64,000 bases of DNA from Sphaerodactylus townsendi (Eukaryota). Location: NCBI RefSeq assembly GCF_021028975.2, contig NC_059427.1, positions 119,970,001 through 120,034,000 on the forward strand. Reading direction: 5' to 3'. Both the position numbers and the translations under genes were made by a program. Below are positions 25,046 to 28,000 of this stretch, piece by piece; the stretch's first letter is position 1, and each line of letters starts with the position of its first letter. A model generated the notes under the pieces. The model did no database searches, was not told the origin of the DNA, and saw only the letters and a program-made list of their open reading frames with translations.

Positions 25046-28000
25046 GTGAGCAGCATTTGGGCAGCGGGGAGAAGAGGTGGCTGCGGGTGGGAGAAGGAGG
25101 AGGAGGAGGAGGAGGAGGAGTCTTCCGAGCAGGGCCTGCTTTCCACCGCCCGTTCCCGTCTTCTCCCGATGCACAAAATCGAATTAGGGATGCGCCGGTT
25201 TTTCTGCATTAAGTTTTTTACATCAGTAGACTAGAAGGGGCAAAGCCCAGCCCCTGCCTTCAGGCAGTGTTTGCATCTGGCCCGATTTTAAAAGAGGGAT
25301 TTTTTCCGATGCTACAGGGATGGAGGAGTGCCTCTTCTAAAGTGTTGCCGGATCTTCCAGTTCAACTCCTCGTATCTCCCGTTAAAGGGATCAGGTGATA
25401 AGAAAGGTTCTCCACGCCACAGTAGATCGTGCTGAGTTTAATAGCCCCCGCCCCGTTTCTACAGGAGCTTGCATTCATTTTTTAAAGTTATTTCTCTTTT
25501 TTGATTGATTGAATAAACGTTGGCATTAATAGACTGAGTATTGCTTCCTGAATGTTTATTGTTTCTTTAGCCCAAGTATAATTTTAATTAACCCCCAGGA
25601 TAAATTTTAGGGTTTCTTATATGTCTTTATTTAGTCCTTCCCTCAAGGGATTCGAGACAGTTTACATATTACTCCCAGCCTTTATTTGGCCTCCATACCA
25701 GCTCTTTGAGGTAGGCTAGTTTGGGAGAAACTGGTCCCAGGTCCCTCAGTTAGCAAAGTGAACTTGGATGTGCCAACGCTACCTGCAGATGCACAGTGGG
25801 AGCTTCCTTTCATGGCTTGAAATGAAACATCAAAGTTCACAGGTTGATCACTTCACTGCAGTAAGAACATAAGAACTAGCCTGCTGGATCAGACCAGAGC
25901 ACTCTGCTACTTGCAGTGGCCCACCAGGTGCCTTGGGGAGCTCACATGCAGGATGTGAAAGCAATGGCCTGCTGCTGCTGCTCCTGAGCACCTGGTCTGC
26001 TAAGGCATTTGCAATCTCAGATCAAGGAGGATCAAGATTGGTAGCCATAGATCAACTTCTCCTCCATAAATCTGTCCAAGCCCTTTTTAAAGCTATGCAG
26101 GTTAGTGGCCATCACCACCTCCTGTGGCAGCATATTCCAAACACCAATCACACGTTGCGTGAAAAAGTGTTTCCTTTTATTAGTCCTAATTCTTCCCTCC
26201 AGCATTTTCAATGAATGCCCCTGGTTCTAGTATTGTGAGAAAGAAAAATTTCTCTCTGTCAACATTTTCTACCCCATGCATAATTTTATAGACTTCAATC
26301 ATATTCCCCCTCAGACGTCTCCTCTCCAAACTAAAGAGGAAGTAACTCCTATGGAGTAACTCCTATGGTCTGTGAAAGGGTGATATTCAGTCTTGCTTCT
26401 CCCTGTCTTACCATAAACTCCAAGCAAGCTTCATCCTCTGGCTTCCATGTGGTCTGTTTTCATAAGTGTGTGTTACACACAACAGCAGTGAGTCTAGAGC
26501 ATACATTGTGTGATCCCACACAGATTTCAACATTCCTGTAAATTGGGGCTCAGAGATAGTGGTTTGCCTGAAGGGACTTGGCCTACTTCTCATTGAGGTG
26601 AGAGTTCAAGCTGGGATTTTGCAGTTTATTCTCTTAATCTGTGGTTGGTAATAGATAGCCAGGGAATACGTGAATTTTCCAGATCAGTACCTTAGACTCT
26701 GTACTATAAAAGGGCCTGGAGCGAGTGGCCTATATAGTGATTGTTGCGTTCTGCTGAATATCAGCTTTTATAATTGTCTCGGACTAATCAAATTAAGATC
26801 ACTCATTTCCTTTTTATGCTGAACGTTTTGTGTTCTCTTACTTAATCTGGGGTAGCTCTGACAACCTAATATGGTCGAAGGCTTTCACAGTCGGAATATT
26901 TGTGCTGGTTTGAAGGAGTCAGTTAGTTTAGCAGCTGCCTGGCGTCTGTGGCTGGCATCCTCTGAAGATGCCAGCCACAGACGCAGGCGAAACGTCAGGA
27001 GAGAATGCTGCTAGAACACGGCCATGCAGCCCGGAAACCACACAGCACCCAACCTAATATGGGTTTTACAATAATCATAGATTGTGATCACCACTTCCCA
27101 TTTGAAAATGCACACACATAGAAAATGTCTGTCTTTTTTTGCTGTTCTTATTGTGGATGCATCATGGTGATATTACTAATGTATATTAAAATAAACTAAA
27201 TTCTAACCCCTGAGTTTCTGTTTGCCAAAACAGTGAGAACTGTTGAAGAGGCTTTGCGTTCAGCTTGCTATAACAATGGTATGCGCTGCTGTGCCTGACT
27301 TGGCACCTTGTTGCCATTTCCCTGAGCTTTCAGATTTGGCTTTTGCTTGGGGCCTCCCCCTGTCAGAAGTGGATTGCTTATCAGTGAAACTCATTGTGTG
27401 GTGCCACACTGGCACACTGAGAAGCACTGGGTGATAGTGATCTGAATGTGCACTGATATAGAAATCACTTATGATCTTCAGTGTGTTGTCATGTCAGTAG
27501 GTGCGATGGTAGCCATGACGGAGGCTGATTCCACACAGGCGACACGGGTTCATGGAACCCATTTCAATTGCCTGTGCCTCCATTTGCATGGGGTGTGTGT
27601 GTGCAGGGGCCTCCTGTGAGGCAGGAGGCGGCCCAGTAGGCATGGGAAGGCCATGTTTCTGTACGCACTGTGCAGCTGAGAATCCGCCCCCACCCAAGAA
27701 TCCCCCCACCTACCTGCATGGCATGGGGGCTGCCTATTGGAGAATCCACTCTAATGGCGGCCACCTGGGGAATCCACCATAATGGTGGATGGAAGGGGGT
27801 GGGAATTGAATGCTTCCTGTTTGCTGTAGTTCGCACAAGCAAGCAGGAAGCATTTATGACCCGGATTAAAGAAAAAAAGTTTGCTAATTTAGTGATTTTC
27901 ATTTAGCCTGGATTCTGGCCAGTAAAACGAGTTAGAAGCATTTGGGGGTGAATTCTGTGGGAATTCACCCCCCCCAAAAATAACGCTTTAAAAAAAGGCC

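What the first reader, a model, noticed from the sequence alone, without database searches (positions are those of the whole stretch)
26936..27000. Intact minimal hammerhead ribozyme in the sense strand of ACOX1 intron 1, with an adjacent antisense arm
Seen: TCCT CTGAAGA T GCCAGC-loop-GCAGGC GAAAC GTC AGGA. This gives a 4-bp stem I, both conserved core boxes (CUGANGA, GAAA), stem II, a palindromic ACGT stem III and a GUC cleavage triplet. Directly upstream (26936-26959) is an inverted copy of the stem II region that can pair with it in an alternative hairpin. Established: Penelope-like elements carry minimal type-I hammerheads that generally work better as dimers. Inference: ACOX1 pre-mRNA contains a potentially self-cleaving motif whose activity could be masked by the upstream arm.
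Basis: partly seen in the sequence, partly recalled or inferred. Interest (0 to 1): 0.7.

Follow-up and report, generated by a model that had tools for sequence, protein, structure and literature searches.

The report
Penelope transposon stub with locked hammerhead
This is a real minimal hammerhead ribozyme motif inside a recent, head-to-head scrap of a very common Penelope-type jumping gene in the first intron of ACOX1; it is predicted to be locked in a hairpin and is likely inert, close relatives lack the insertion, and its short antisense arm is likely a full-length arm that the assembly got wrong.

Summary
The motif is there as described (26958-27000, sense strand of ACOX1 intron 1) and is not chance, though stem II has an A.A mismatch and the fourth stem I pair is not conserved. 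It is the 5' end of a Penelope/Poseidon retrotransposon: a 175-base insert with a 12-13 base target duplication. This exact 43-mer has 424 copies in the genome, a one-base variant 8,991; about 100,000 family loci are estimated, two thirds head-to-head. Contigs of two related organisms show the empty site, so the insertion is young and unconserved. The arm is the ordinary inverted copy that these elements leave; it outcompetes the ribozyme fold by 24-29 kcal/mol as assembled and 65 in full-arm copies. The arm's middle is probably an assembly error: short-read contigs of two samples disagree with the assembly from 26898, and 4 of 30 sister loci show the same one-arm garbling expected of nanopore reads on inverted repeats. 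The lizard relative (PAc) cleaves only with its protein. This scan found the same family before on other DNA of this genome. Verdict: known kind, likely inert; interest low.

The parts
26862..26874 (.). Left target-site duplication (13 bases; 12 if the first C of the right copy is the element's last base)
   Evidence: Exact repeat of 27050-27062; empty site in organisms B and C holds one copy
26875..26897 (-). Penelope 'tail' extension, inverted; unpaired end of the antisense arm
   Evidence: 85% identical to the tail of copy L052; matched without differences by the X1 contig
26898..26941 (-). Middle of the antisense arm; garbled against the family (about 27 bases short, 10 gaps over the arm); likely an assembly error for a complete arm
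   Evidence: X1 and X3 contigs carry 4 letters that do not fit past 26897
26942..26959 (-). Intact loop-proximal part of the antisense arm; pairs with 26967-26984. Bases 26957-26959 are a 3-base microhomology shared with the native sequence ahead of the ribozyme
   Evidence: 231 exact copies of this junction in the genome
26958..27000 (+). Minimal type I hammerhead motif; predicted cut after 26996
   Evidence: 424 exact copies
26968..27049 (+). Start of the element's ORF (ATG 26968-26970, first 27 codons), ending at the tail-less 3' end of the pseudo-LTR
   Evidence: sense arm differs from L052 by 2 transitions, no gaps
27050..27062 (.). Right target-site duplication
24928..25045 (+). ACOX1 coding exon 1 (context)
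28201..28359 (+). ACOX1 exon 2, approximate limits (context)

Best explanation
This is a recent 175-base head-to-head stub of an abundant Penelope/Poseidon retrotransposon, whose hammerhead motif is predicted to be sequestered by the upstream inverted arm and is likely inactive in the ACOX1 pre-mRNA. Shown: the target duplication, the empty site in relatives, the family's copy number, the RT gene upstream of the same motif elsewhere. Inferred mechanism of origin: the element's endonuclease made two nicks 12-13 bases apart; both were extended on element RNA from the two known start sites (one with, one without the tail), both stopped near the RNA's 5' end and joined at a 3-base microhomology, giving two arms back to back. 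Inferred behaviour: the arm is transcribed first and pairs with G8, A9 and all of stem II before the 3' half of the ribozyme exists, so the intron carries a plain hairpin. Inferred separately (about 0.8): the true arm is complete (about 118 bases, an 84-bp hairpin) and its middle was miscalled in the assembly.
For: Target duplication and one-contig empty site in organism B (X4, 26861 joined to 27050) and in organism C (X5, X8: left flank runs straight into the right flank). 8,991 and 424 exact copies, reversed control 0; 37 loci in 664 kb, 24 with both strands. Copy L052/L182 has the same motif behind about 2.2 kb of broken ORF with RVT_1 (E 1.9e-08) and a GIY-YIG-like C-terminal part seen by eye. 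ATG at the start of stem II, cut 26 nt after it and tail end at +117 match PAc (PMC11167929, text parts 1-2). PAc hammerhead cleaves only with protein; a single S. mansoni min-HHR does not cleave (PMC11167929; PMC4209133 part 2). Copies decay at core CpG sites: 33 of 132 cells changed, 10 of 44 arms intact. Tail on the antisense arm in 18 of 30 same-junction loci, on the sense arm in 8, not found in 4. Assembly error: 24 of 30 sister loci have two good arms, 4 have one garbled arm (2 sense, 2 antisense) that is intact for the first 18 bases and 37-63% identical in the next bins; X1 and X3 contigs end with 4 non-fitting letters past 26897; PMC7229812 (passages) describes miscalled and missed bases in the second arm of inverted repeats in nanopore reads.
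Against: No cleavage, structure-probing or RNA data for this copy; masking rests on computed energies. Pfam did not call GIY-YIG on the broken frames. The four non-fitting letters were not printed, no contig spans the arm, and the sequencing method of the assembly is not known. My solo-versus-inverted control for garbling was inconclusive (1 of 48 solo and 8 of 132 inverted arms flagged, about half of them plain truncations). X1 may be the sample the assembly came from; X1, X3, X4 are one study. Non-CpG core sites varied less than non-core sites (12 of 440 against 77 of 1188), but my filter and subfamily differences bias this.
Confidence: 0.88

Rival explanations
1. The motif is an intronic ribozyme of ACOX1 switched by the upstream arm: under some condition the hairpin opens and the pre-mRNA is cut.
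For: Core nucleotides are all intact and on the sense strand; without the arm the ribozyme fold is within 3.0 kcal/mol of the best fold; domesticated intronic hammerheads exist in amniotes (PMC6155905, passages).
Against: Absent in two related organisms whose flanks differ by about 0.3% and 5%; 24-65 kcal/mol against the active fold; no stem III as a monomer and no tandem partner; 231 copies share the junction at unrelated sites.
Confidence: 0.04
2. The short, damaged arm is real: an error-prone second strand or later hairpin-induced deletions eroded it in the genome.
For: It stands so in the assembly; long palindromes are unstable (general knowledge); real deletions occur in other copies (L093, L100, L104).
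Against: 10 gaps and 11 substitutions on one arm against 2 transitions on the other in a very young insert; contigs of two samples disagree with the assembly just past 26897; damage starts about 18 bases from the loop and spares the unpaired tail in all five garbled copies.
Confidence: 0.15
3. The palindromic stub is itself a non-autonomous element (retrozyme- or MITE-like) that is copied as a unit.
For: 231 copies share this exact junction; 54 variants are mirrored between arms.
Against: Junctions vary widely among copies picked without regard to junction (L051-L080); with one junction the tail lies on either arm; the junction sits on a microhomology that would recur; no tandem arrays seen; 137 variants are on one arm only.
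Confidence: 0.08

Closest known systems
PAc / Poseidon_Ac, Penelope-Poseidon element of Anolis carolinensis (Frangieh et al. 2024, PMC11167929)
   Same: Hammerhead in the pseudo-LTR with ORF start at stem II, cut 26 nt after the start codon, optional tail ending near +118, RT plus C-terminal GIY-YIG ORF in longer copies
   Different: Another species' family; this copy has no ORF beyond 27 codons and is head-to-head; direct sequence comparison with PAc was not possible (the GenBank supplement cannot be read here)
Metazoan PLE minimal hammerheads (Cervera and de la Pena 2014, PMC4209133)
   Same: Short helix I, long helix II with an unpaired base before it, G10.1-C11.1, palindromic 15.2-16.2 with no loop III, mostly single dispersed motifs
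   Different: Helix II here has an internal A.A mismatch (39 of 44 arms); conserved helix I is 3 bp
Inverted pseudo-LTR insertion structure of EN+ Penelope elements (Arkhipova et al. 2013, PMC3846280; Craig et al. 2021, PMC8557442)
   Same: Inverted 5'-truncated copy next to the direct one, 30-40 base tail on one end, target duplication, palindrome at the junction
   Different: Extreme truncation: only about 90-120 bases per arm
Domesticated intronic hammerheads of amniotes (RECK, DTNB; as reviewed in PMC6155905)
   Same: Type I hammerhead on an intron's sense strand
   Different: Those are conserved across classes and canonical; this one is minimal, multi-copy, masked and absent in close relatives

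Membership tests
Penelope/Poseidon EN+ PLE insertion | RT ORF upstream of the same pseudo-LTR in longer copies | tested here: met
   L052/L182: RVT_1 E 1.9e-08 above cut-off
Penelope/Poseidon EN+ PLE insertion | C-terminal GIY-YIG endonuclease with CCHH | tested here: inconclusive
   GVY..C.C...YIG motif and later His residues seen by eye across a frame break; Pfam gave no call
Penelope/Poseidon EN+ PLE insertion | Pseudo-LTR includes ORF start and a hammerhead | tested here: met
   ATG 26968-26970; cut 26 nt after it as in PAc
Penelope/Poseidon EN+ PLE insertion | Optional 30-40 base tail on one end; inverted copy; target duplication | tested here: met
Penelope/Poseidon EN+ PLE insertion | RT groups with Penelope/Poseidon in a tree | not tested
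   No reference PLE proteins were fetched
Minimal type I hammerhead (min-HHR) | CUGANGA, GAAA, NUH, helices I and II, palindromic 15.2/16.2 | tested here: met
Minimal type I hammerhead (min-HHR) | Covariation in helices among copies | tested here: not met
   One both-sided change at the eight conserved pairs in 44 arms; outer helix I pair broken in most; weak test
Minimal type I hammerhead (min-HHR) | Self-cleavage | not testable with these tools
   Needs an assay
Rfam hammerhead families | Score at gathering threshold | tested here: not met
   no hammerhead family listed
Domesticated intronic hammerhead | Conserved at the orthologous site | tested here: not met
   Empty site in organisms B and C
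Non-LTR retrozyme | Tandem head-to-tail units with canonical hammerheads | tested here: not met
   Single head-to-head unit; no tandem copy within 22000-32000

The most novel reading that the evidence does not exclude
Head-to-head insertion silences the element's own ribozyme, and this is why about 100,000 hammerhead-bearing stubs are tolerated in this genome; unmasked sense-strand copies would cut host pre-mRNAs whenever the element's protein is expressed, so selection would deplete solo sense copies from introns while palindromic ones like this ACOX1 copy persist.
Probability: 0.07. Interest if true: 0.6.

Novelty: new member of a known kind. Interest (0 to 1): 0.11.

Why it matters
As biology of ACOX1 it most likely does not matter: it is one young copy among about 100,000. 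Two practical points stand. First, short 'antisense arms' or 'diverged fold-backs' beside these hammerheads in this assembly can be sequencing errors and should be checked against reads before they are read as regulatory designs. Second, the insertion is a clean presence/absence marker with a known empty site, and the family offers thousands of dated products for testing the two-nick, two-start model of Penelope integration.

Tried and rejected
Rfam scans: no hammerhead family; only weak hairpin matches below threshold. Sequencing runs: no RNA holder listed; this says nothing on expression. Cover: no contig of the runs laid covered 26900-26935 (0-0.51); a hole proves nothing and is not counted as evidence. 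Solo-versus-inverted garbling control: confounded by truncations and by a deleted subfamily reference; inconclusive. Search for another locus sharing 26872-26897 that would explain where the contigs end: only this locus; the break point itself is unexplained. Dimer fold: ViennaRNA cannot score the intermolecular stem III topology; the 4-base palindrome duplex alone is -1.7 kcal/mol. Pfam for GIY-YIG and PDB: RT-level matches only; Atlas gave no answer; one search was uninformative. Supplements of PMC11167929: three text files held no term searched; the GenBank file with the PAc sequence cannot be read, so no cross-species covariation test. Paper searches for twin priming with Penelope (3 listings, none on topic by title) and Penelope with gecko/squamate/hammerhead found no description of this family; the library lacks most subscription papers. 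One search had an indexing error and was redone; the exon 1 frame was off and was redone.

Full report
Observation. The motif is at the stated place: stem I 26958-26961 with 26997-27000, CUGANGA 26962-26968, an unpaired U, stem II 26970-26975 with 26983-26988, GAAA, the ACGU palindrome and GUC with the cut after 26996. The arm 26942-26959 is the exact complement of 26967-26984; 26900-27050 folds at z -4.71 with 0 of 200 shuffles as stable. Exon 1 ends at 25045 and exon 2, at about 28200, matches ACOX1 structures (a late exon), so this is intron 1, sense strand. A descriptor of my own found 14 such motifs in 664,000 bases, all of one repeat family, against 1 in 20 shuffles. Rfam lists no hammerhead here.

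What it is part of. A 13-base direct repeat flanks the motif at 26862-26874 and 27050-27062. A contig of organism B (run X4) joins 26861 to 27050 with one difference on each side, and contigs of organism C (X5, X8) run from 26874 straight into the right flank: the site is empty in both. Two samples of organism A (X1, X3) carry the insert's left end. X1, X3 and X4 are one study, X5 and X8 another. The insertion is therefore young and not conserved.

The family. The window's 43-mer has 424 exact copies in the genome, a one-base loop variant 8,991 with 0 for the reversed control. A census of the window, 200 kb beside it and 40 scattered 10-kb pieces found 37 loci in 664 kb, 24 of them with both strands; scaled to 1.81 Gb this is roughly 100,000 loci. 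In copy L052/L182 the motif follows about 2.2 kb of broken ORF with an RT domain (Pfam RVT_1, E 1.9e-08) and a GIY-YIG-like end seen by eye but not called by Pfam. The ATG at the start of stem II, the cut 26 nt after it and a tail ending at +117 agree with PAc of Anolis (PMC11167929, read: text parts 1-2 of 4). Inverted copy, one-sided tail, target duplication and junction palindrome are the described insertion structure of these elements (PMC3846280 and PMC8557442, passages). Native copies have the same four bases ahead of the core, so stem I is not made by the junction.

Conservation of the fold. Of 53 arms taken from the census, 9 were dropped (cut at a junction or out of register) and 44 kept; 10 are intact by my criteria. 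The outer stem I pair is U-A in 13 of 44 and A.A or G.A in 26; position 17 is U in 29 and C in 14; only one cell at the eight conserved pairs changes on both sides. Core CpG sites are changed in 33 of 132 cells, so inserted copies decay. Non-CpG core sites vary less than others (12 of 440 against 77 of 1188), which may reflect selection on master elements and my own filter.

How it likely behaves. The arm is transcribed first, so it would also win kinetically (inference). Stem III needs a partner molecule; a single schistosome min-HHR did not cleave and dimers were slow (PMC4209133, parts 1-2 of 4); the PAc motif cleaved only with its protein, and RNA-seq showed no ends at the site (PMC11167929). 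The intron most likely carries an inert hairpin.

How it likely arose. 231 copies share this exact junction, which sits on a 3-base microhomology, but copies picked without regard to junction show many junctions. Among the first 30 same-junction loci the tail is on the antisense arm in 18, on the sense arm in 8, not found in 4. In the window's type the arm that reaches the junction lacks the tail that the other arm has, which one cDNA folding back on itself cannot give; two primings at the two nicks, from the two start sites shown for PAc, can (inference). Earlier notes of this scan reached a like reading on other copies; they are not independent support.

The arm is probably miscalled. Against L052 the window's antisense arm is 93 bases instead of 118 with 10 gaps and 11 substitutions, while the sense arm has 2 transitions. 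The loop-to-tail distance is 74 here and 101 in 19 of 26 sister loci where the tail word was found. Of 30 sister loci 24 have two good arms, 4 have one garbled arm (L083, L084 sense; L088, L103 antisense) and 2 are unclear; garbled arms are intact for about 18 bases from the loop, then fall to 37-63% identity, and the unpaired tail is spared. This is the pattern described for nanopore reads crossing inverted repeats (PMC7229812, passages). The unique left-flank contigs of X1 (0 differences over 398 bases) and X3 both end with four letters that do not fit beyond 26897, whereas fitting contig ends are laid to the last base. Limits: those letters were not printed, no contig spans the arm, the assembly's method is unknown, and my solo-versus-inverted control was inconclusive. 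I put the error reading at about 0.8. Either way the ribozyme is masked.

Comparison and verdict. It works like, and by the features tested is, a truncated head-to-head Penelope/Poseidon insertion with a minimal hammerhead; clade placement by tree was not tested. It fails the conservation test for domesticated intronic hammerheads (PMC6155905, passages) and the tandem test for retrozymes (bioRxiv 10.64898/2026.07.22.740005, passages only; its supplements are closed). Searches found no paper on this particular family. Eight earlier notes on this genome describe it; none on arm garbling was found. New member of a known kind, interest 0.11.

Noticed in passing
window 46509-46768: Head-to-head copy of a second subfamily in a later ACOX1 intron; its sense-strand hammerhead (from 46685, GUU triplet, 3-bp stem I) passes the descriptor, so the same pre-mRNA holds two intact motifs 19.7 kb apart.
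   Followed up: partly
window 60807-61027: Complete palindromic copy about 1.75 kb after the ACOX1 stop codon (about 59057), with a hammerhead on each arm, each with a damaging change; whether it lies in the 3' UTR is not known.
   Followed up: partly
window 18636-18729, minus strand: Solo copy that keeps native upstream sequence with a TATA-like run; G12 is changed.
   Followed up: partly
window about 35500-35640 and 39440-39600: Two similar ACOX1 exon 3 versions, as in the known mutually exclusive isoforms (isoform knowledge recalled).
   Followed up: no
L057, L054, L105: Runs of G-rich filler sequence directly beside family copies, likely further miscalled inverted arms in this assembly.
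   Followed up: no
L103 and window 26898-26941: Two unrelated loci with different target duplications share short identical wrong words in their garbled arms, as systematic base-calling would give.
   Followed up: partly
L076/L077, L079, L080, L101: Junctions with short tandem re-copies of the ribozyme's 5' part, suggesting repeated template jumps near the RNA's 5' end.
   Followed up: no
L107: A second copy of the motif begins about 30 bases after the first insertion ends, in the same direction: a rare natural tandem pair that could be used for a dimer test.
   Followed up: no
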